Source: a virus
Taxonomy: Duplodnaviria; Heunggongvirae; Uroviricota; Caudoviricetes
Strand: one strand, 5' to 3'
Length of the DNA: 64,000 nucleotides
IMG/VR virus record: IMGVR_UViG_2645727901_000008
Part shown: positions 4,447 through 60,774 of the stretch, piece after piece
Layout: every line of letters starts with the position of its first letter
How positions within the stretch are numbered: the first letter of the stretch is position 1
The notes under the pieces: generated by a model
What the model was told of the DNA's origin: nothing
Databases searched by the model: none
What the model saw: only the letters and a program-made list of their open reading frames with translations
Made by a program: the position numbers and the translations under genes

Positions 4447-5202
4447 ATGAACAGAGCGGAATTAACAGCAAAAGCCGTCAGCCTGATTGAGTCAGCGACA
4501 CCTATTAGTCGTAGTTTGGCACAAGCCAATGAGATCACGGAGGCTGCTTATCACCTGACTCGCGACCAAAAGCGACTGTTGTTTATTGTGGTGGGAAGAC
4601 TTCGCTATGCTTCTAAGGATGGCGTTCTTGGTTCAGGTGCCTGTGAGTTGACGGTCAACGAATATGCAGAGATGTATAATTTGCCCTCTGCTGAAGCCAG
4701 CAAGGATATTCGTAAGGCCATTTCAGGGCTTAGCGAGAAGAAAGTTACGATATATAACCCTGATGAATCGACCGAATCAGAAGACAGTTATGAGTCTTAT
4801 CCTTGGATGATTAAGGATGCCTATTCACCACGGCGCGGGACTTACATTATTCATCTTAATCCATATCTCATGCCGTTTTTTACTCTGCTTGATAAGAGAT
4901 TCACGAGGCTGAATTTTACCGAAGTATCTCGCCTTACAAATCCTTATTCTATGCGGCTTTATGAGTCCTTATGCCAGTACAGGAAGGATGATGGAAGCGG
5001 CTTTGCCATACTTGGCGTCGAATGGATGCGGGAGCGTTATGGGTTACCAAAAAGCTATCAGCGGTATGCCGAATTTAAGAGAAGTTTTTTAACGAAGGCT
5101 GTAGCAGAGATTGAAAAAAATACAAAAATGAAAATAGTCTTCTCAGAGGTGACGGAAGGCGGAAAAGTTACCAGGATAAAATTTACCTATCAGCAGTCTT
5201 AA
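4447..5202 (+). CDS. repA: Iteron-binding plasmid replication initiator RepA-like
   Basis: Flanked by iteron arrays on both sides; ATG at 4447 follows the last iteron (the track's TTG at 4414 lies inside an iteron). Confidence 0.75.
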   Translation: MNRAELTAKAVSLIESATPISRSLAQANEITEAAYHLTRDQKRLLFIVVGRLRYASKDGVLGSGACELTVNEYAEMYNLPSAEASKDIRKAISGLSEKKVTIYNPDESTESEDSYESYPWMIKDAYSPRRGTYIIHLNPYLMPFFTLLDKRFTRLNFTEVSRLTNPYSMRLYESLCQYRKDDGSGFAILGVEWMRERYGLPKSYQRYAEFKRSFLTKAVAEIEKNTKMKIVFSEVTEGGKVTRIKFTYQQS

Positions 5203-5537
5203 GGGCAATTTTTACACCCTTCTCAAGGTGTAGAATTTGCCCTTAACGATCGGCAATTGAGGGCAATTTTTACATCTTAATTGCATGTATCTTGTTATTA
5301 GCAAGTTGTGTTTTTATATAACGTATTGATATGTAAGGATTATGTAAAAATCACCCTCAACCAATATCGTGCGTATCGTGCATTCTTATTGCGCTTTTTT
5401 ATTATCATTCACTGTGTTAACTGATTGATATTATTGAAATGTGTAAAGAATGCCTTCATTACAGATGAATTGATGATGTAAAAAATGCCCTCAAAATTGC
5501 GCTACCTTCCCTACCCGCTATCGTTGAGGGCGTGGGT
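5201..5537. repeat. Downstream iteron cluster in both orientations (incA-like copy-control locus)
   Basis: At least six copies of the GTGTAAAAATTGCCCTCAA family in both orientations after the repA stop. Confidence 0.7.
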
Positions 5538-5583
5538 GCTGACGGGAAATGAGCAACCCTCCAGCACACATAATTAAAGCGCT

Positions 5584-6291
5584 TCAGAATTTAATCACTC
5601 CACTCACAGCTCCCTTTAACGCACTTGTAGCCATGCCTGCGGCACCGTTGACCAAAGCAGAAACACCTGAGCCTGCGGATGTGTATTTCTGGAAAGTGAT
5701 TGGGTATGACAAGAACTCTGACACCTGATCACGTGAGCGAGTGATTTCCCCAAGTTGTGTAGGAAATACGCGCATTTCTTCTTCCAGTTCTTTTCCGCCG
5801 TCCTGAGTCACCCGGTAGACACGGATTTTCATCAGATATTCAGGAGGAAGGTTTATTGTTCCATCAGGGTTTGTTACACGAGAACGACGCTCTTTGAACC
5901 AGTCCATGATCTTGCCATCTTCGGTATCCCTCACGGTCATAGTGACCGGTCCGGCGCTAACATAGGTTGGCTTGCTGAATTCTACGCTGCCGATCACCTT
6001 GCTTTCTGTCTCAATGTTTCCACTGCTGTAGGTGATATCCTTCACGAACATATCGAAGCCGTTCAGGCCATCCACTTCAACGGTCCACTGCCACCCCTGG
6101 GCGTAACGGATACGCATAGCGGCAGCAACAATATTTTTCCCGTAGGCAATATCGCTACTGTAATTCCCGCTTACCCCGCCGCCTGATATGGCTTTATCAA
6201 GAATGTCGCTAATGAGGTTGCTGGTGAATGATTTCGTGTTAAATGACAATGCGGTGGTCAACGTTCTACCAACGCTGCTGAAAATACTCAC
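5584..6291 (-). CDS. Putative tail structural protein
   Basis: 235-aa ORF, GTG start with GGAGG RBS, in the tail gene block. Confidence 0.4.
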   Translation of the reverse strand: MSIFSSVGRTLTTALSFNTKSFTSNLISDILDKAISGGGVSGNYSSDIAYGKNIVAAAMRIRYAQGWQWTVEVDGLNGFDMFVKDITYSSGNIETESKVIGSVEFSKPTYVSAGPVTMTVRDTEDGKIMDWFKERRSRVTNPDGTINLPPEYLMKIRVYRVTQDGGKELEEEMRVFPTQLGEITRSRDQVSEFLSYPITFQKYTSAGSGVSALVNGAAGMATSALKGAVSGVIKF

Positions 6292-33456: not shown

Positions 33457-33631
33457 ATTGGCAGCCTCCTTTGACTAAGTTAAGGAGCTACCGCGTGAGG
33501 TTCCAATCTCAATGGCGGTAGCACTGACTGGGTTGGAACTACCGGCGTCAAAGGGAACCGGCCTGCCTTTCGGCAGCCCAGCCAGCACTACCATTGATCT
33601 CTGAGCTAAACGCTACGTATGGCTGTGCGAT

Positions 33632-33720
33632 GGCATGACACAAAAAAAGACGCTTTCGGCGTCTGTGTCGCCTTTGACATTATCCGGGGTTCCAATCCCG
33701 GCACCCGTTTTTCTAAGGTG
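33632..33720 (-). ncRNA. Candidate c4-like antisense RNA
   Basis: Promoter-like region with operator-like GTAGAAATATA, then on the minus strand a hairpin (AGACGC-CGAAA-GCGTCT) plus U-run about 80 nt downstream; GGTTCCAATC-type elements recur in the icd leader. Confidence 0.35.
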
Positions 33721-33772
33721 CCGTAGAAATATACCCCACGATAATGCCAGGGCGCAACAGTCAGTATTTTAT

Positions 33773-44521: not shown

Positions 44522-44794
44522 TTGTATATGTTGCGTAGATTTTTAGGTAAAAGCGTTATTGTCGGTGCGATGTTGGCTATGTCTGGGTGTGCTATGGTGC
44601 AATACAATGACGGAGAAAAGGTTAGCATCCAGTCAGATGGTTGGTATGGCCTGGATAGCCTGCAAAAAACAGCGGATAAAGCCTGCCAGCAATACGGAAA
44701 GTCTAAAGCCGTATATCAGCATAGCGCGAACGCTAACCCTCATCTTGCGCCCGGTTCGGGTGTTCAGAATACCATCTGGAAATGTGAGCCTTAA
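44522..44794 (+). CDS. Small lipoprotein
   Basis: Signal peptide with lipobox LAMSGC. Confidence 0.5.
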
Positions 44795-44796
44795 AC

Positions 44797-45045
44797 ATGA
44801 GCGACTGGAATATTGCAGCCAAAAGTCAGGAAGAACGGGATAAGGTTAACGTAGATCTGGCTGCCAGCGGTGTGGCGTACAAAGAGCGATTGAACATACC
44901 AGTCATAGCGGAACAGGTGGCCAGGGAACAACCTGAGCACTTGCGTGCATATTTCATGGAAAGACTACGTTATTACCGCGAGCAGAGCGTGAAACTACCA
45001 AAAGGAAGTGATCCGGTATATCAAAAGGCAGATCCACAAAAATAA
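44797..45045 (+). CDS. hot: Pol III theta-subunit homologue (P1 Hot-like)
   Basis: [39 protein letters not shown] matches HolE as recalled. Confidence 0.75.
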
Positions 45046-55432: not shown

Positions 55433-56007
55433 CAGAAAGCCTCCCAGTCAGTCGCGATAATATCCACACCAGTTGCAAACCAGTCTGTCTGCGCCTGTAA
55501 ATCACCATTCATCATTACCAGGCGAGGCATCACCATCACATCGCACCCTTCCACAATATCGAATGCCTCTTCCGGCAAGAATTCGAAGAGCTTTTCTTTG
55601 CTGCCAATGCTGCCACGGAACATCGATATATAGCTCCCTTTAGGCCATGATGTCCGCCGGGCATCAAGCCCTTTCATCATCCAGTAAAAAGCCGAGGAAA
55701 AAGGGATATTCTTTTTGCCAATGATTACATTATTCGCTTCTGTGTACTTCAGGAACTTAACTAACCTTACCATTGACTCGGATAACGCAACGTATGGCTC
55801 ATGATTGATTGCTGACACGCTTACACCGTGCAATCCAACGCTTACCACTGTCATATCGCCGCTTTGTGCGGTTTCGATATTGACGCCTTTGCGAACTAAT
55901 GAGGCGTAAAGTTCCTCTCGCTTTTGGGTCCAGCGTTCACGCTTCCCTATGAAGTCACTCAAAATGAGATCTTCTTCTGCATATGCGTTATCGTTCGCCA
56001 TTAACAT
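55432..56007 (-). CDS. Hypothetical protein
   Basis: 191-aa coupled ORF. Confidence 0.4.
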   Translation of the reverse strand: MLMANDNAYAEEDLILSDFIGKRERWTQKREELYASLVRKGVNIETAQSGDMTVVSVGLHGVSVSAINHEPYVALSESMVRLVKFLKYTEANNVIIGKKNIPFSSAFYWMMKGLDARRTSWPKGSYISMFRGSIGSKEKLFEFLPEEAFDIVEGCDVMVMPRLVMMNGDLQAQTDWFATGVDIIATDWEAF

Positions 56008-56461
56008 AACGTCTCCTTTTTTACACGCGCGACTATCCCCCGGAAGTACCGGTAGTGATGTCGTAACTTCGTATTAATTAAGGGGTACAGCCTGAGCGGC
56101 TATATGATGAATTGAAAGGAGTTGTGGCGGTGGTGCCTCCACCTGCCAGGTTAGCCACTCCCGGCGACGTCACTTATCAGAACGTAGTGAATGAAAATGG
56201 CTTCGTCACGAGCGCATAGCCGCAATTACCACAACGGAAACGGCGCTCACGCTAATTAAACGCCTTTTCCTGTTGTGCGCCGTACTCTTCCGGCTGTCAC
56301 ACCGAATCGCCAGGATGGTGAGTCCTCGGTCCGACGATATGAACGGGGCTTGCACATTCCGGCTACCTGGTTTGTTGCCTGAGCTAGGGGAAAAGGTAAC
56401 CCCTTTAACGTCACCAGACCGCTAACGACGCATGTGCCATACGCCGTGTTACAACCAAATA

Positions 56462-56537
56462 TGGTGGCCCCTACCGGACTTGAACCGGTGACCGTGCGAT
56501 TATGAGTCGCCAGCTCTAACCACTGAGCTAAAGGGCC
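56462..56537 (-). tRNA. tRNA-Ile2-like, anticodon CAT (could be Met)
   Basis: Cloverleaf traced by hand; close to E. coli ileX as recalled; CCA encoded. Confidence 0.8.
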
Positions 56538-56547
56538 AATTAGTGTT

Positions 56548-56661
56548 TTATTTTCGACGCCTGAGATTCTTCGCGACTTGTTCTACGCCGTATACGATCA
56601 CAAGTAGAAACAGCAAAAACCATCCAGGGTTCTTATCGATATACGTCCAAAAATCCATCAT
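56548..56661 (-). CDS. Tiny membrane peptide (37 aa)
   Basis: Hydrophobic core; start overlaps the upstream stop. Confidence 0.3.
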   Translation of the reverse strand: MMDFWTYIDKNPGWFLLFLLVIVYGVEQVAKNLRRRK

Positions 56662-56822
56662 GAGTTCCTGAACGCACCTTCAATAATCGGCAATAGCAAT
56701 ACCACAGCTACTGAAACTAATGCCCCATCAGCCAACACCGACATCACTTTGCTGGTGAAATCCACCAGTACGGACAAAACGAGAAAGCCAATGGCGCCCG
56801 CAATACGCGCCTTGCCAATCAT
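56658..56822 (-). CDS. Small membrane protein (54 aa)
   Basis: ATG overlaps the TerB-like stop (TAATG); two hydrophobic segments. Confidence 0.35.
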   Translation of the reverse strand: MIGKARIAGAIGFLVLSVLVDFTSKVMSVLADGALVSVAVVLLLPIIEGAFRNS

Positions 56823-57256
56823 TACAGATAATCTTCCACACGAAGGCCAAGACGGCGACCAACCTCTTCCAGAACCTTATGCTCCGCAGGTTCGATTTCA
56901 CCATCTGCTTCAGCGATCGTGAGCATGTTCACGAAGACTTCTTCCGCTTCTTTGGGATCGTTTTTGATATCTTCAATTTCGCGGAGGATATTCATGCGAC
57001 CAACACGGAAACCAGCTTCCAGTTGCTCAGTAAAACGGGTGATTGTTGCGGTAATTTCGTTGCCAAAATGACTTAAGCGAGGATTAGAGCGGACAAGCTG
57101 ATCAAGTTTCGCTGTTTCTTCCTTTTCGATTTCACCATCTGCGGCAGACACCAGCAAACAGCCACCGATGATGGCCTCCATCAGATCGCGATTCTCAACC
57201 CTTTTCAGCTCTACTTTTGCTGAAGCGACTTTCTTACCGAAAAATTTACCGAACAT
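56822..57256 (-). CDS. TerB-like tellurite-resistance family protein (P1 TciA-like)
   Basis: TerB-like acidic repeats ADGEIEKEE and ADGEIEPAE; ATG 57256 with GAGGG RBS. Confidence 0.7.
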   Translation of the reverse strand: MFGKFFGKKVASAKVELKRVENRDLMEAIIGGCLLVSAADGEIEKEETAKLDQLVRSNPRLSHFGNEITATITRFTEQLEAGFRVGRMNILREIEDIKNDPKEAEEVFVNMLTIAEADGEIEPAEHKVLEEVGRRLGLRVEDYL

Positions 57257-57523
57257 TGGTTTTCCCTCAATAAACATGACGTATTTATTAGGTTGCGGTG
57301 CCTGGTGCCTCCAGGTGACGTTAACCAGTTAACAATTAACGCCGGGATTTTTGTCTTCACAATTAAGGAGGATTGTTTTAACTGTTCCGCGTGCGCTTAG
57401 CCGCATTCACCGCAATGGTAAGAGCACTTGGCTGGCTGGGCGGCGATGACGCCTGTACGCATTTGGTGAACCGGTTCTGCTTCCGGCATTCGCTTAATTA
57501 GCCAAATACTCTTAACGTTGCAC

Positions 57524-57610
57524 TGGCGGAGAGTAATGGAATCGAACCATCATCGCTTGCGCAATGGGACGGTTTTCAAGACCGCTTGAGCACCATGCTC
57601 CCTACTCTCC
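57524..57610 (-). tRNA. Long-arm tRNA-like gene, anticodon loop CUUGAAA (Ser-TGA-like), atypical D/variable arms
   Basis: 7-bp acceptor stem, TTCGATT T-loop, CCA encoded; anticodon stem-loop resembles tRNA-Ser(UGA) but other arms are non-canonical. Confidence 0.5.
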
Positions 57611-57746
57611 CGTTATTGTGGCGACCGGTGCTGATCTCCGGCTTGCGGTTATTTCAGACTCTCACGGGCGTTTAATTGCCCCGCCGAACAGCTCTTTTCC
57701 GCAATAGCTGCAATGTCTTTCGCGCATCAGCCTGCGCATTCACCAC

Positions 57747-57834
57747 AATGTTGAGAACACTGGTTGTCACGCTGCAACGCAACATTTATTCGTAGATTGG
57801 GATATGACCCCGTTACGCCAGTGTTCTCAACGTT
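57747..57834. repeat. 17-bp inverted repeat (16/17) separated by 54 bp
   Basis: AATGTTGAGAACACTGG ... CCAGTGTTCTCAACGTT. Confidence 0.5.
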
Positions 57835-57983
57835 GTAGTGCCGGTTACGGTTCCGGCCAGGCCTCTTCCTCAACGGGTTGTTCTCCATACGGACTACCGT
57901 TTATTGGTCGTTCCTGCGGTTTATGTTGTGAAGCCAGATGCTTATCTTCTGGTTGCTTCAAAGAGCTGCACTTCATCACAACG

Positions 57984-58056
57984 GTAAGGGTACTTCGTAG
58001 GGATTCGAACCCTCTGCCAAGCACGGCGATCTCCGACGTCGCAAAATACCCTTACC
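57984..58056 (-). pseudogene. Degenerate tRNA-like element
   Basis: GGTTCGAATCCC T-loop and 7-bp acceptor pairing, but no canonical anticodon arm and no CCA. Confidence 0.3.
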
Positions 58057-58064
58057 TGTTGCGT

Positions 58065-58140
58065 TGGTGCCGATTAACGGGATCGAACCGCTGACCATTC
58101 GCTTACAAAGCGACTGCTCTACCAACTGAGCTAAACCGGC
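58065..58140 (-). tRNA. tRNA-Thr (TGT)
   Basis: Canonical cloverleaf, anticodon loop TTTGTAA, CCA encoded. Confidence 0.85.
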
Positions 58141-58144
58141 AATT

Positions 58145-58231
58145 TGGTGGGGAGTGATGGAGTCGAACCACCCGAGTCGCAATGACAGTAGATTTACAGT
58201 CTACCCCGCTACCCCTACGGACTAACTCCCC
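58145..58231 (-). tRNA. tRNA-Tyr (GTA), long variable arm
   Basis: Anticodon stem-loop GTAGA-CTGTAAA-TCTAC as in E. coli tRNA-Tyr; CCA encoded. Confidence 0.75.
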
Positions 58232-58236
58232 TAAAG

Positions 58237-58313
58237 TGGCGATGGTGGGTGGATTCGAACCACCGACCGACAGCTTAGAAGGCTGCTGCTCTATCCTACT
58301 GAGCTACACCATC
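58237..58313 (-). tRNA. tRNA-Arg (TCT)
   Basis: Canonical cloverleaf, anticodon loop CTTCTAA, CCA encoded. Confidence 0.85.
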
Positions 58314-58816
58314 ACTTGCCGGGTACGTCTCCGGCGAGGGCTTCCACCTCCGTATGCTTTTCGGCGCACCGCGCCCTGGCTGCAATTCAGTAACAGGGGA
58401 TGCATAACCCTGGCTTCCAGCGTGATTAGCGCCTTCAGCATGACGGGATATACCCGTAACCAACAAACTTTCCCATATACCATCAAACAATGGCTGTTAC
58501 GCGGGAGGGACGTAACAGGTAAGGGCGCTGACCAGAAAGACCTGACCCTTCTCATTCATCTGGTTAATCACACCAGCGCCCTTGCCTGTTATGTCTCCCC
58601 GTTCCCTAATACACAGACGGGGACACTCTGCGGTCGATTTTTTGACGGGGGACGACTCATACCCCGTGGCGTCTGGCTTCTTAGGCCGCTACCATCATCA
58701 GATCATCGTTTGCATTTACTTTAATGGTCGGTTTCTAAACCGCCGCAAAGCCGCTAACCATGACGAAAACCCTAAAAAAGCCCACCCGAAGATGGGCAAA
58801 TACGCTACATCTCACA

Positions 58817-58895
58817 CAAGAAAGAAGCCGACTGCCTGAGCTGGATTCACTTTCAAATGCCCGCAGAAAGGGAACACAAGTCGGCTTCTTTCTTG
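58817..58895. repeat. Perfect 17-bp inverted repeat separated by 45 bp
   Basis: CAAGAAAGAAGCCGACT ... AGTCGGCTTCTTTCTTG in an ORF-poor stretch. Confidence 0.6.
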
Positions 58896-59383
58896 ATGCG
58901 GCACTCTCTCCGCCCGTCACCGTTCTGTCTCGGTTGTCGCGTTTGCCACGCCAGCCGTAACGAGGTTTAAAGTCTTTGCACGTTTCCATCACTCGACTGC
59001 CGTCTGTGGCTGTTCGTTGCAGCGGGGGTGCCTCCCCCTGGGGATATCCCCGGCCTTACCCCATTCTTTCAAGACACAATGCAAGGCCGCATCCGCATAG
59101 GTGCATTACCGCAACATTAAGGAGACTTAGGGCAAAAGGTAATCGCCACAAAAAAAATCCCTATGCCTCCTTAATGTTGAGGATGTGCATTGATGATGAT
59201 TCGATGCGGCGAGTCCCGTTACTCTCTGCCGGACCATCATCAATGAACATCTTAAAAAGACCTTCCGTGGCTCAACATGTCTTGTCGTTTACTCCGTAAA
59301 GTGCTCTCTCTGAAACCACTTTACGCACTAAACCTGCTGAACTTTGGCTTGCTCGGTGCCAAAGCGAGTCCCTGTATGTATGT

Positions 59384-59398
59384 AATTTTCTAACACTT
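59384..59398. promoter_or_regulatory. C1-type operator-like site
   Basis: AATTTTCTAACACTT. Confidence 0.45.
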
Positions 59399-59540
59399 TA
59401 ATTTGTTATTTGCTGGTGGGCGAACAACAACCAATAAGTGACTATCAAGCCCAGCAAGCGAAATGTGGCAACGCTCCACCAGCAAGGAAAATTCTAAGTT
59501 AAGTTACTCTCACAATCAATACGTTCGTTTAGTGAAATTA

Positions 59541-59555
59541 GATTTCTAACATTTT
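59541..59555. promoter_or_regulatory. C1-type operator-like site
   Basis: GATTTCTAACATTTT at the 3-prime end of the 406-aa gene. Confidence 0.45.
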
Positions 59556-60774
59556 ATTTCCCATAAAGATCTTCTACGCCCCCATTCTTCTTGTCCCATT
59601 CGTTAGCCCACACCCGGCAGGCATCAATAATTTCTTGACGACGGTCGCCCTGCATAAAGGGGATGCTTTCATGAAAACTACTTGGGATACAGGCCACGCT
59701 GAATACGGTATCAAACGCAGTCTGTTTGATAGCTTCCAACGTCTCTGGGCGCATTTTCAATTCATCGATCGGCGCATCCTTAGAGTCCATAATCCGGCGA
59801 TGCAGGCGCGGGAAATCAGTCTCCAGGTACGCCATAATTTTATCTGCCAGGCATTCGTCTATATCGGTATTCCAGTCCGTTTCGAAGCCGGGCAGGCGAT
59901 AGTAAAGCGGCGTTCCCCATACTGATGGGATCACATCCATCGTCAGCAGGCGGTTGGTTCTAATTTGTTGATGGTAATTAGCCGTCAACAGAGCTTCACC
60001 ACGCTGACCAGTCTCCGCAACCAGACCATGCGGGTACTCATGGATATAGGCAATAGCATCCACCCCGTCATACATGAGCGGGAATGTCTCTGGCCTTTGT
60101 CCCATACCACAAGCGCGGTTCAGATCATGACCAAGCTGTGAGCACTCTCGTTTCAGCGTTTCAATAATGTTCTGCGCTGTTGCTAACTTTTTACGCAGTG
60201 TGACGCCTTCGCCTTGATACTTAATGCATTGCTGATTCAGCTCTGTTAAACGCTCTTTTAGTTCCCGACGCTCTCTTTTCAGCGCACGGTTATCCTTCTC
60301 CGCAACATCCAGTCGTTTTGACAGACTGGCTGGATAGTCTTTTTTGTAACGACTCAAATCGGCTTCTGCGGATTTGCGCAGTGTGTTTGCCTGTTCAAGA
60401 CGCGCTTCCAGATTACCGATCTCACTACGCATATTCGCGGCAAATTGATTAACAGCATTGCCAAGACTTTCAACTGTCGCTGATACGCCTGTGACTTGTG
60501 AAAAACGGATCAAGCCATCATTAACGGCTTGTTGATATCCCTCAAACTGATCCACCAGCTTGTTGTAATCAACCGTCCCTTCCTCAAGTAGCTGGTTGAT
60601 CTCCGCGACCAGGTTATCAGTAGTGGCAATGACGCTCTCATGTAACCGTCTGGACAGGTCATCCCCCGGATTCCGCTTTTGAATAAGGGCGATCTGTGTC
60701 CGCAGCGTTTCAATCGCGGCTGAGATGATTTCCAGATTAGAAGTATCAGTTTGTTGACTCATTGCAGTTCCCAT
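59554..60774 (-). CDS. Operator-controlled coiled-coil protein
   Basis: ATG 60774 (or 60762) just downstream of the operator; long N-terminal coiled-coil. Confidence 0.5.
   Translation of the reverse strand: MGTAMSQQTDTSNLEIISAAIETLRTQIALIQKRNPGDDLSRRLHESVIATTDNLVAEINQLLEEGTVDYNKLVDQFEGYQQAVNDGLIRFSQVTGVSATVESLGNAVNQFAANMRSEIGNLEARLEQANTLRKSAEADLSRYKKDYPASLSKRLDVAEKDNRALKRERRELKERLTELNQQCIKYQGEGVTLRKKLATAQNIIETLKRECSQLGHDLNRACGMGQRPETFPLMYDGVDAIAYIHEYPHGLVAETGQRGEALLTANYHQQIRTNRLLTMDVIPSVWGTPLYYRLPGFETDWNTDIDECLADKIMAYLETDFPRLHRRIMDSKDAPIDELKMRPETLEAIKQTAFDTVFSVACIPSSFHESIPFMQGDRRQEIIDACRVWANEWDKKNGGVEDLYGK

What the first reader, a model, noticed from the sequence alone, without database searches (positions are those of the whole stretch)
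57747..58895. Two long inverted repeats (17-bp arms, about 50-bp spacers) in the tRNA island
A perfect 17-bp inverted repeat (58817-58833 / 58879-58895) and a 16/17 one (57747-57763 / 57818-57834) share the same architecture but not sequence; neither is followed by a U-run. They could be RNA processing stems, regulator sites or recombination scars.
Basis: seen in the sequence. Interest (0 to 1): 0.45.

Follow-up and report, generated by a model that had tools for sequence, protein, structure and literature searches.

The report
Conserved RNA hairpins punctuating a phage tRNA island
The two inverted repeats are real, evolutionarily maintained RNA hairpins in the long untranslated leader and tRNA island of a P1/D6-like phage-plasmid; one belongs to a hairpin family also present in phage lambda's late leader, and they most likely act as double-stranded RNA processing or stability signals.

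Summary
Both repeats exist as described (58817-58833/58879-58895 is 17/17; the other extends to 23 bp, 57741-57763/57818-57840). The window is a phage D6/P1-like phage-plasmid. The repeats lie in the untranslated, minus-strand leader and tRNA island of the operon equivalent to P1's ban operon.

The 57.7-kb hairpin is 100% identical in P1. It belongs to a family with a conserved stem base (CAACGTTGAG.../...CTCAACGTTG or CAACAGGTAAG.../...CTTACCGTTG) and a variable upper stem and loop. At least five members occur in this island, often abutting tRNA 3' ends. Others occur in many IMG/VR contigs, a Vequintavirus tRNA cluster, and lambda just after tR'. Upper stems covary (14 of 23 pairs change on both sides; 91% paired against about 35% when slid). 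G.U pairs far outnumber A.C on the tRNA-sense strand, so the structure works as RNA.

The 58.8-kb hairpin is specific to D6-like leaders, shows three compensatory pair changes, and sits 19 nt upstream of an intrinsic terminator.

Function is inferred, not shown: probably RNase III-type processing or stability stems separating tRNA, sRNA-like and mRNA modules. I rate this a new member of a known kind, of moderate interest.

The parts
57741..57840 (-). Hairpin I4 (the finding's 16/17 repeat). It is a type-B member of the CAAC-stem family, with a 23-bp stem and a 54-nt loop that folds into two small stem-loops.
   Evidence: 100% identical in phage P1. One-sided substitutions in orthologs are kept as G.U or C-G. 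Family covariation is shown.
58813..58900 (-). Hairpin I6 (the finding's perfect 17-bp repeat). It is an extended rod of about 32 pairs including an inner CUUUC/GAAAG helix, and is specific to D6-like leaders.
   Evidence: Three double compensatory pair changes occur in L093, and a C.A to C-G or U-A repair occurs in the inner helix.
58774..58797 (-). Intrinsic terminator 19 nt downstream of I6. This segment is homologous to the 3' end of P1's annotated 'dicF-like region'.
59491..59519 (-). Sigma-70-like promoter of the leader (TTGATT-17-TAGAAT). It is flanked by two copies of the over-represented motif TGTTAGAAAWNTA at 59539-59551 and 59383-59395, which are candidate repressor operators.
   Evidence: It corresponds by position to the C1-controlled Pban/Op72 of P1.
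59109..59182 (-). Hairpin I1, a type-B family member (CAACATTAAGGAG.../...CTCCTTAATGTTG).
   Evidence: 30.7 bits, E 6e-6 with model R1.
58504..58600 (-). Hairpin I2, a type-A family member (AACAGGCAAGGGCGCTGG.../...CAGCGCCCTTACCTGTT), upstream of the tRNA cluster.
   Evidence: A covarying homolog is in L096 at 1716-1806.
58065..58313 (-). Tandem tRNA-Arg(UCU), tRNA-Tyr(GUA) and tRNA-Thr(UGU).
57978..58062 (-). Hairpin I7, a type-A family member starting 3 nt after the CCA end of tRNA-Thr. Its loop carries a T-arm-like GGGTTCGAATCCC.
57615..57749 (-). Diverged STnc100/PasD-like module directly following I4 (GGTGAATGCG...GTCGCCACAAT).
   Evidence: (repeat I10). It is not detected by Rfam.
57524..57610 (-). 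tRNA-Ser(UGA).
57411..57522 (-). Hairpin HB, a family member starting 1-2 nt after tRNA-Ser. Its 66-nt loop is homologous to lambda 44,868-44,930.
57294..57414 (-). STnc100-like module (RF02076, 38.9 bits, below the gathering score of 47) forming the 5' UTR of tciA.
56822..57277 (-). tciA (TerB-family) ORF, the first protein-coding gene downstream of the island.

Best explanation
SHOWN. Both inverted repeats are structured RNA elements on the minus strand. They lie in a roughly 2.2-kb untranslated stretch of a P1/D6-like phage-plasmid that contains five tRNA genes, between a repressor-type promoter (about 59.5 kb) and tciA (57.28 kb). This is the counterpart of the P1 ban-operon leader.

Hairpin I4 belongs to a family of long hairpins with a conserved stem base (CAAC...GTTG plus GTTGAG/CTCAAC or AGGTAAG/CTTACC) and a freely covarying upper stem and loop. 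Family members sit at module boundaries: directly after the last tRNA of a cluster, directly after lambda's tR', and directly before STnc100/PasD-like modules. Hairpin I6 is a separate, lineage-specific, covarying rod 19 nt upstream of the leader's intrinsic terminator.

INFERRED. Stems of 20-27 bp are substrates for a double-strand-specific host factor, most likely RNase III. Staggered cleavage within the stem would cut the polycistronic precursor into tRNA clusters, sRNA-like modules and the tciA-ban mRNA.

This would leave short duplex stubs that delimit tRNA 3' trailers. It would also free the 3' strand (GUUGUGGUG) to pair with the downstream CACCACAAC that closes the next module. For I6, cleavage or simple stability would shape the 3' part of the terminated leader RNA.
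For: Identity of the replicon and operon.

Stability: both hairpins fold with z about -6, and both are retained in larger folds.

I4 conservation: it is 100% conserved in P1 and present in more than 550 plasmids. Nineteen one-sided changes among orthologs all keep pairing through G.U or C-G.

Family covariation: 30 distinct type-B members were oriented independently, by the strand of neighbouring tRNAs.
- 91.4% of cells are paired, against 34-52% with slid partners.
- 14 of 23 pairs change on both sides (69 cells).
- 0 of 500 shuffles reach the observed score.

Chance matches to the anchor pattern show no upper-stem pairing.

Strand asymmetry: G.U against A.C is 42:12 cells for type B and 34:1 for type A on the tRNA-sense strand.

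Position: 30 of 90 distinct tRNA 3' ends are followed within 15 nt by a family hairpin (Thr 18/19, Ser 12/16), and another 30 by the next tRNA.

Distribution: the family occurs in lambda at 44,788-44,863 just after tR', in a Vequintavirus tRNA cluster and in an unrelated E. marmotae plasmid.

I6: three double compensatory pairs plus an inner-helix repair.

RNase III link, not verified here: Daniels et al. 1988 (Virology 167:568, cited as ref 49 in PMC7547250) reports RNase III processing sites in the lambda late transcript in vivo. I know only the title; the positions could not be checked.
Against: No RNA ends, no cleavage data and no expression data were available for any of these phages.

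The RNase III assignment rests on stem length, position and an unverified literature lead.

Much of the covariation is between paralogous or horizontally shuffled copies. Part of the complementarity could therefore come from how palindromes arise (inverted duplication or arm-to-arm conversion) rather than from selection on RNA. Orthologs of I4 are too close to show double changes.

A conserved stem-base sequence is not a known requirement of RNase III. It hints at an additional, unidentified recognition factor or at recent horizontal spread.

All of I6's compensatory changes come from one divergent sequence (L093).
Confidence: 0.45

Rival explanations
1. The hairpins are passive RNA structures and are not cleaved. 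They would act as barriers to 3'-to-5' exonucleases and as 5' protective stems that stabilise neighbouring tRNA precursors, sRNA-like modules and the downstream mRNA. Alternatively, they keep a long untranslated RNA folded so that Rho cannot load.
For: The evidence for RNA-level structure is the same as for the best explanation. The hairpins abut the 3' ends of stable RNAs. About 2.2 kb of untranslated RNA precedes the first ORF. This reading needs no specific nuclease.
Against: It does not explain the strongly conserved stem-base sequence shared by unrelated phages. A hairpin abutting the CCA end would hinder exonucleolytic tRNA 3' trimming unless an endonuclease removes it.
Confidence: 0.2
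2. The repeats are DNA-level elements. The conserved CAAC...GTTG arms would be recombination linkers, or the ends of small palindromic mobile units. Through them, tRNA and sRNA cassettes are exchanged between P1-like, lambda-like, SSU5-like and rV5-like phages. In this reading the RNA hairpin is a by-product.
For: Modules are clearly shuffled at the arms. The loop of hairpin HB is a segment that lies outside the hairpin in lambda and inside a different stem in a Vequintavirus. tRNA content differs between close relatives while the hairpins stay. The same 20-nt arm sequence occurs in unrelated phage backbones.
Against: The G.U over A.C asymmetry on the transcribed strand is not expected for double-stranded DNA sites. 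Upper stems covary beyond the conserved linker. No transposase or recombinase is associated with them. The lambda-type copy occurs only 1-3 times per genome, in 163 of 5426 E. coli genomes, so it is not a dispersed repeat.
Confidence: 0.12
3. I6 plus the adjacent terminator is the body of a small regulatory RNA. It would be released from the prematurely terminated leader, as StxS is from PR'-tR' in Stx phages or DicF from its operon. It would then act in trans by base pairing.
For: A promoter-like site and an intrinsic terminator bracket a roughly 710-nt leader. The terminator is shared with P1's annotated 'dicF-like region' while the upstream body differs. This pattern of a conserved 3' end with a variable body is typical of prophage sRNAs (bioRxiv 10.64898/2026.05.13.724894; PMC7547250).
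Against: There is no Rfam match: DicF is not found at E<=5, and STnc240 scores only E 1.3 on the opposite strand. No target was identified. Almost all of I6 is locked in a duplex, leaving little single-stranded seed. This reading is compatible with the main explanation rather than exclusive of it.
Confidence: 0.15
4. I4 is simply part of a protein-coding gene (P1 'plp', a putative lipoprotein on the plus strand), and its symmetry is incidental. Alternatively, both repeats are chance palindromes.
For: P1 annotates plp over this sequence. The 125-codon frame is open in the window.
Against: The frame overlaps tRNA-Thr in antisense. NCBI's automated PGAP annotation and the D6 annotation do not call it. 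It is broken into separately located pieces in L096 and L053, where only the hairpin modules persist. Substitutions preserve RNA pairing. Chance is excluded.
Confidence: 0.03

Closest known systems
RNase III processing stems of polycistronic precursors (E. coli rRNA operon 16S/23S stems; phage T7 early R1-R5 sites; lambda N-leader, sib and late-leader sites)
   Same: These are also long (about 20-27 bp), imperfect intramolecular duplexes without U-runs. They lie between functional RNAs in one transcript and flank stable RNAs. A sequence homolog sits in the lambda late leader, for which RNase III processing in vivo has been reported (Daniels et al. 1988, title only).
   Different: Cleavage has not been shown for any member. 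Known RNase III sites do not share a conserved stem-base sequence as these hairpins do. The loops here are large (27-78 nt) and partly structured.
Lambda late-leader hairpin at 44,788-44,863 (between tR' and S), unannotated in J02459 and NC_001416
   Same: It has the same family stem (CACAACAGGTAAGAGCATTG.../...CAGTGCTCTTTCCGTTGTG). It has the same position at the 3' boundary of a stable RNA, and is followed by a module homologous to the loop of window hairpin HB.
   Different: I4 is the type-B variant (GTTGAG/CTCAAC, no bulged A) and sits in a tRNA island of a P1-like phage. I6 has no detectable homolog in lambda.
STnc100 (RF02076) and PasD prophage sRNAs
   Same: Modules of this kind directly follow the hairpins three times in the window. 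They share the GGUGAAUGCG start and the CACCACAAC end, and the hairpin's 3' strand overlaps the module's closing helix.
   Different: The hairpins themselves are not part of the Rfam model. The window copies score below the gathering threshold or are not detected.
tRNA-linked repeats and RtT RNA of the E. coli tyrT operon; phage T4 stable 'species 1 and 2' RNAs in its tRNA cluster (recalled from general knowledge, not tested)
   Same: These are also non-tRNA structured RNAs embedded in tRNA operons, some carrying fragments of tRNA 3' halves. T-arm-like GGTTCGAATCC and GAGTTCGACTCTC occur in several loops here.
   Different: There is no Rfam hit to RtT or to tRNA for the hairpins. No sequence similarity was established, and the T4 RNAs could not be compared.

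Membership tests
CAAC-stem hairpin family (defined here) | Conserved stem base: CAAC + GTTGAG ... CTCAAC + GTTG (type B), or CAAC-A-GGTAAG ... CTTACC + GTTG (type A). | tested here: met
   I4 reads CACTACAACGTTGAG...CTCAACATTGTGGTG. For I6 (CAAGAAAGAAG.../...CTTCTTTCTTGTG) the resemblance is only loose, so I6 is not counted as a member.
CAAC-stem hairpin family (defined here) | At least 6-8 further base pairs above the conserved base that covary between members. | tested here: met
   columns 16-23 are paired in about 100% of cells. Pair types include AU/GC/CG, and upper stems include AACACTGG/CCAGTGTT, ACCACTGG/CCAGTGGT, GCCATTAC/GTAGTGGC and CGGTTTGG/CCAGACCG.
CAAC-stem hairpin family (defined here) | Located on the sense strand at the 3' boundary of a tRNA cluster or a terminated RNA. 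| tested here: met
   One search gives the family statistics. The I4 ortholog in L096 starts at the CCA end of tRNA-Thr. In the window, I4 lies 140 nt downstream of I7, which itself abuts tRNA-Thr.
RNase III substrates | About two helical turns (20 bp or more) of largely uninterrupted intramolecular duplex. | tested here: met
   I4 forms 22-25 pairs, I6 forms 17 perfect pairs plus 4-5 flanking pairs, I2 forms 24-27 and HB about 24.
RNase III substrates | rnc-dependent staggered cleavage leaving 2-nt 3' overhangs. | not testable with these tools
   No RNA end data were available. The only lead is the title of Daniels et al. 1988 for lambda. The paper is not held.
Intrinsic (Rho-independent) terminators | A short GC-rich stem followed directly by a U-run. 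| tested here: not met
   neither hairpin qualifies. The only terminator nearby (58797-58774) is a separate element 19 nt downstream of I6.
Described RNA families (Rfam 15: tRNA, DicF, RtT, Y RNA-like, STnc100 and others) | Covariance-model match at or near the gathering score. | tested here: not met
   (E<=5 over 56000-60000) give only chance-level miRNA and STnc240 hits over the hairpins. STnc100 matches the module next to HB, not the hairpins.
Dispersed palindromic repeats (REP/BIME, ERIC, MITE-like) | Many copies scattered in intergenic regions of host chromosomes. | tested here: not met
   the lambda-type copy is present in 163 of 5426 E. coli genomes, with a median of 1 and a maximum of 3 per genome. 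An 86-nt BLAST query would miss copies that share only the arms.
Integron attC sites | R''/R' core sites (RYYYAAC ... GTTRRRY) at the ends of an imperfect palindrome, in cassette arrays next to an integron integrase. | tested here: not met
   Direct reading: the arms contain AAC|GTT, but CTACAAC and GTTGTGG do not fit RYYYAAC and GTTRRRY. The units follow tRNAs rather than ORF cassettes. The window was not screened for an integrase.
Protein-coding gene plp (P1 annotation) | An open reading frame conserved as a unit in diverged relatives. | tested here: not met
   in L096 only codons 1-38 (the hairpin) are retained. In L053 the frame is split into separate pieces. The frame overlaps tRNA-Thr in antisense.

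The most novel reading that the evidence does not exclude
The CAAC-stem hairpins would be a shared 'punctuation' system of enterobacterial phages with two roles. As RNA, they are recognised through their conserved base by a host factor (RNase III plus an unknown specificity partner, or another enzyme) that excises tRNA and sRNA cassettes from leader transcripts. As DNA, the same conserved arms are the joints at which such cassettes are swapped between unrelated phages (P1-like, lambda-like, SSU5-like, rV5-like). This would be an integron-like cassette economy without an integrase.
Probability: 0.15. Interest if true: 0.7.

Novelty: new member of a known kind. Interest (0 to 1): 0.4.

Why it matters
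Phage tRNA islands and late or early leaders are usually treated as unannotated filler or given dubious small ORFs, such as P1 plp and upl. This analysis shows that they contain a recurrent, covarying RNA hairpin family. The family is shared by model phages P1 and lambda and by lytic Vequintaviruses, always at the boundaries of tRNA or sRNA modules.

This gives a concrete, testable handle on two questions:
- how phage-encoded tRNAs and prophage sRNAs (STnc100/PasD-like) are matured from long precursors;
- why these regions are hot spots for cassette exchange.

It also argues for removing spurious ORF annotations in P1-like genomes. It is not a new principle, because long processing stems in polycistronic RNAs are well known.

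Tried and rejected
1. TciA-based retrieval of distant relatives. Loci with TciA at 90% identity or less have no tRNAs or hairpins, so they gave no deep orthologs.

2. An arms-only covariance model, R1. It found only the short-loop member I1 and could not span 45-78-nt loops, so it was not used for membership.

3. A check of the K-12 DLP12 late region for a family copy, in order to use published RNase III maps. No copy is present.

4. Literature. The P1 genome paper, Daniels et al. 1988 and the Casjens and Hendrix lambda review are not held. Searches for P1 ban, dicF-like or transcriptome data returned nothing useful.

5. Curated annotations of lambda (J02459, NC_001416) and P22 show no feature over the hairpin region. 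P22 has no family copy.

6. Coding explanations. The plp frame was rejected. The small ORFs across I6 were rejected because the ATG is lost in L055 and indels occur in the loop.

7. tRNA-like, Y RNA-like, DicF and RtT identities: no Rfam support.

8. Operator-type DNA sites. This was rejected because of the 45-54-bp spacing and inner-helix covariation.

9. Whether I6 belongs to the CAAC family: only a loose resemblance, so the question is left open.

Full report
**Context**

The window is a P1-family phage-plasmid closest to phage D6. The region 56400-59600 matches D6 at 94% identity over 96% of its length, and many roughly 90-kb E. coli and Salmonella plasmids at 95-96%. C4 antisense RNA and isrK hits at 33.5-33.7 kb fit a P1-type immunity region.

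All five tRNA genes lie on the minus strand:
- Met, 56462-56537
- Ser(UGA), 57524-57610
- Thr, 58065-58140
- Tyr, 58145-58231
- Arg, 58237-58313

In P1 the homologous stretch is the leader of the C1-controlled ban operon: Pban/Op72, then the 'dicF-like region', tRNA-Asn, tRNA-Thr, tciABC, trnI and ban.

In the window a sigma-70-like promoter lies at 59519-59491 (minus strand) and an intrinsic terminator at 58797-58774 (minus strand). The first ORF, tciA, starts at 57277. A 13-nt motif, TGTTAGAAAWNTA, occurs 12 times in the window against 0.87 expected. Two copies flank the leader promoter, consistent with a D6-type repressor operator.

The finding therefore lies in about 2.2 kb of untranslated, minus-strand, probably repressor-controlled RNA.

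**The observation**

Both repeats are present. I6 is 17/17 with a 45-nt spacer. I4 extends beyond the stated core to 23 nt (57741-57763/57818-57840) with a 54-nt spacer.

As minus-strand RNA they fold at -49.2 and -40.5 kcal/mol (z about -6). As plus-strand RNA they fold less well, at -43.1 and -35.9 kcal/mol. They survive folding in 246-nt and 171-nt contexts.

Hairpins of this size are concentrated here. Five or six of the 7-9 in the window lie in 57.7-59.3 kb, against 1.8 expected per 64 kb.

**I4 is a member of a hairpin family**

I4 is 100% identical in P1, where it lies inside the annotated plus-strand ORF plp. It is present in more than 550 plasmids.

The arms of I4, HB, I1, I7 and I2 share a stem-base sequence.
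- Type B reads cACAACGTTGAG[upper stem]...[upper stem]CTCAACrTTGTG.
- Type A reads cACAACAGGTAAGrG...CyCTTAyCGTTGTG, with a bulged A.

Further members with other upper stems and loops occur in several places:
- P1 and P1-like IMG/VR contigs;
- seven times in the tRNA island of an E. marmotae 166-kb plasmid with a different backbone;
- a Vequintavirus tRNA cluster;

The family also occurs in phage lambda itself at 44,788-44,863, immediately downstream of the 6S RNA terminator tR' and upstream of S.

**Evidence that the structure is selected, and acts as RNA**

Pattern anchors constrained only the lowest 9-10 bp. In true family members the next 8-10 positions are nevertheless paired, with different sequences: AACACTGG/CCAGTGTT, ACCACTGG/CCAGTGGT, GCCATTAC/GTAGTGGC and CGGTTTGG/CCAGACCG. 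The base also varies as CAAC/GTTG to CAGC/GCTG. Chance matches to the anchors show no such pairing.

I tested 30 distinct type-B arm sets, oriented by the strand of neighbouring tRNAs.
- 91.4% of cells pair, against 34-52% when the partners are slid.
- 14 of 23 pairs change on both sides (69 cells).
- No shuffle of 500 reaches the observed covariation score.

G.U outnumbers A.C by 42:12 cells in type B and 34:1 in type A on the tRNA-sense strand. Among close I4 orthologs, 19 one-sided substitutions are all absorbed as G.U or C-G. This asymmetry points to a sense-strand RNA rather than a duplex-DNA site.

One caveat applies. Many comparisons are between paralogous or horizontally moved copies, so part of the complementarity may reflect how such palindromes arise.

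**Position and neighbours**

Family hairpins abut stable-RNA 3' ends. I7 starts 3 nt after tRNA-Thr, and HB starts 1-2 nt after tRNA-Ser. Across the fetched loci, 30 of 90 distinct tRNA 3' contexts are followed within 15 nt by a family hairpin (Thr 18/19, Ser 12/16). Another 30 are followed by the next tRNA.

Three times in the window a hairpin is followed by a module that starts GGTGAATGCG and ends CACCACAAC-like. The copy upstream of tciA matches Rfam STnc100 at 38.9 bits, below the gathering score of 47. STnc100 is a prophage sRNA related to PasD and found next to Q antiterminators (bioRxiv 10.64898/2026.05.13.724894).

The hairpin's 3' strand (GUUGUGGUG) can pair either with its own 5' strand or with the CACCACAAC that closes the next module. 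In lambda the longer fold takes the second alternative.

Modules are shuffled between phages. The loop of HB is a lambda segment (44,868-44,930) that in lambda lies just outside the hairpin. In the Vequintavirus it lies inside a different, covarying stem.

**I6**

This hairpin occurs only in D6-like leaders: 112 plasmids plus D6. P1 has a different sequence at this position but shares the downstream terminator, which is the part annotated 'dicF-like region'.

Alignment of ten distinct variants gives 32 predicted pairs.
- Three pairs show double compensatory changes (A-U to U-A twice, G-C to A-U), all in the divergent L093.
- One C-to-U change is kept as U.G.
- An inner-helix position varies among C.A, C-G and U-A.

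No ORF across I6 is conserved, since the ATG is lost in L055 and indels occur in the loop. No Rfam family matches. Its resemblance to the CAAC family is loose, so membership is left open.

**Coding rival for I4**

The 125-codon plp frame is open in the window. However, it overlaps tRNA-Thr in antisense, and NCBI's automated PGAP annotation and the D6 annotation do not call it. It is fragmented in L096 and L053, where only the hairpin modules persist. I regard plp, and probably upl, as spurious.

**Mechanism (inferred)**

Three features fit double-strand-specific processing of a polycistronic precursor, as in rRNA operons and in T7 and lambda transcripts:
- stems of 20-27 bp without U-runs;
- placement exactly at boundaries between tRNAs, sRNA-like modules and mRNA;
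- a position abutting CCA ends, where an endonuclease would be needed before exonucleolytic trimming.

RNase III processing sites have been reported in the lambda late transcript in vivo (Daniels et al. 1988, cited in PMC7547250). I could not read that paper. Assigning those sites to the lambda family member is therefore a lead, not a result.

The main alternatives are listed with their tests in the rivals section:
- passive stabilising or anti-Rho structures;
- DNA-level recombination linkers;
- for I6, an sRNA derived from the terminated leader.

**Comparison and verdict**

The elements work like known processing stems and include a homolog of an unannotated lambda leader hairpin. No Rfam family covers them. 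They are not terminators, not dispersed host repeats, not attC sites by their core sequences, and not coding.

I classify the finding as a new member of a known kind. The structural claim is strong, at about 0.85. The specific RNase III mechanism is moderate, at about 0.4.

Interest is moderate. The family's breadth (P1, lambda, rV5-like phages) and its link to tRNA and sRNA cassette boundaries are worth an experiment, but no new principle is demonstrated.

Noticed in passing
window 12812, 20876, 34258, 34912, 38248, 49179, 50579, 55010, 59383, 59539, 60790, 61833: The 13-nt motif TGTTAGAAAWNTA occurs 12 times (up to 1 mismatch) against 0.87 expected. Two copies bracket the leader promoter. 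It is probably the operator of the D6-type C1 repressor, analogous to the scattered C1 operators of P1.
   Followed up: partly
window 57294-57414(-), 57615-57749(-), about 59015-59112(-): Three STnc100/PasD-like modules each directly follow a CAAC-stem hairpin. Only the first is seen by Rfam (38.9 bits, gathering score 47). Each starts GGTGAATGCG-like and ends CACCACAAC-like.
   Followed up: partly
L002 (P1 AF234172) 5031-5600; window 57717-58092(+): The P1 genes upl and plp lie antisense to the tRNA and hairpin island. plp overlaps tRNA-Thr, and its frame is not conserved as a unit in L096 and L053. Both look like spurious annotations.
   Followed up: yes
L311 (lambda NC_001416) 389-545, i.e. 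lambda 44,788-44,944: In lambda, GTTGTGCTG at the 3' end of the hairpin can pair alternatively with CAGCACAAC 70 nt downstream. This encloses a module homologous to the loop of window hairpin HB, and the minimum-energy fold of the longer segment uses this alternative.
   Followed up: partly
window 57524-57610(-): tRNA-Ser(UGA) scores best against Rfam tRNA-Sec (43.5 bits, below the gathering score of 47) and is not reported as tRNA by the gathering-threshold scan. The same gene is unannotated in Vequintavirus EmilHeitz between tRNA-Tyr and tRNA-Lys.
   Followed up: no
window 58065-58313 compared with D6 (L001) and P1 (L002): tRNA content differs between close relatives. The window has Arg-Tyr-Thr where D6 and P1 have Asn-Thr. 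The Tyr-Arg pair is about 83% identical to that of Vequintaviruses, which suggests cassette exchange between temperate and lytic phages.
   Followed up: partly
window 5254-5363(-): Another long hairpin lies far from the tRNA island. It has a 22-bp stem and a 66-nt loop (TGGTTGAGGGTGATTTTTACAT.../...ATGTAAAAATTGCCCTCAATTG). Its base is reminiscent of the type-B GTTGAG/CTCAA motif.
   Followed up: no
window 57983-58056(-); L054 3437-3510; L002 about 4995-5060: Several hairpin loops contain tRNA T-arm-like motifs: GGGTTCGAATCCC, AGAGTTCGACTCTCT and GGGkTCATATCCC. These are possibly remnants of tRNA 3' halves. ARAGORN and Rfam call none of them as tRNA.
   Followed up: partly
window 33511-33598(-), 33643-33721(-): C4 antisense RNA (77 bits) and isrK (62.7 bits) lie next to each other, which is the P1-type immI immunity region.
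   Followed up: no
window 59177-59333(-) and 59406-59489(-): The 5' part of the leader carries three more strong hairpins outside the CAAC family. I3 has 24-27-bp arms rich in TGATGATGA, I5 is a 22-bp near-palindrome, and the third is a 14-bp stem (TTCCTTGCTGGTGG/CCACCAGCAAATAA) starting about 5 nt downstream of the predicted -10 hexamer. All are conserved with variation in D6-like relatives.
   Followed up: no
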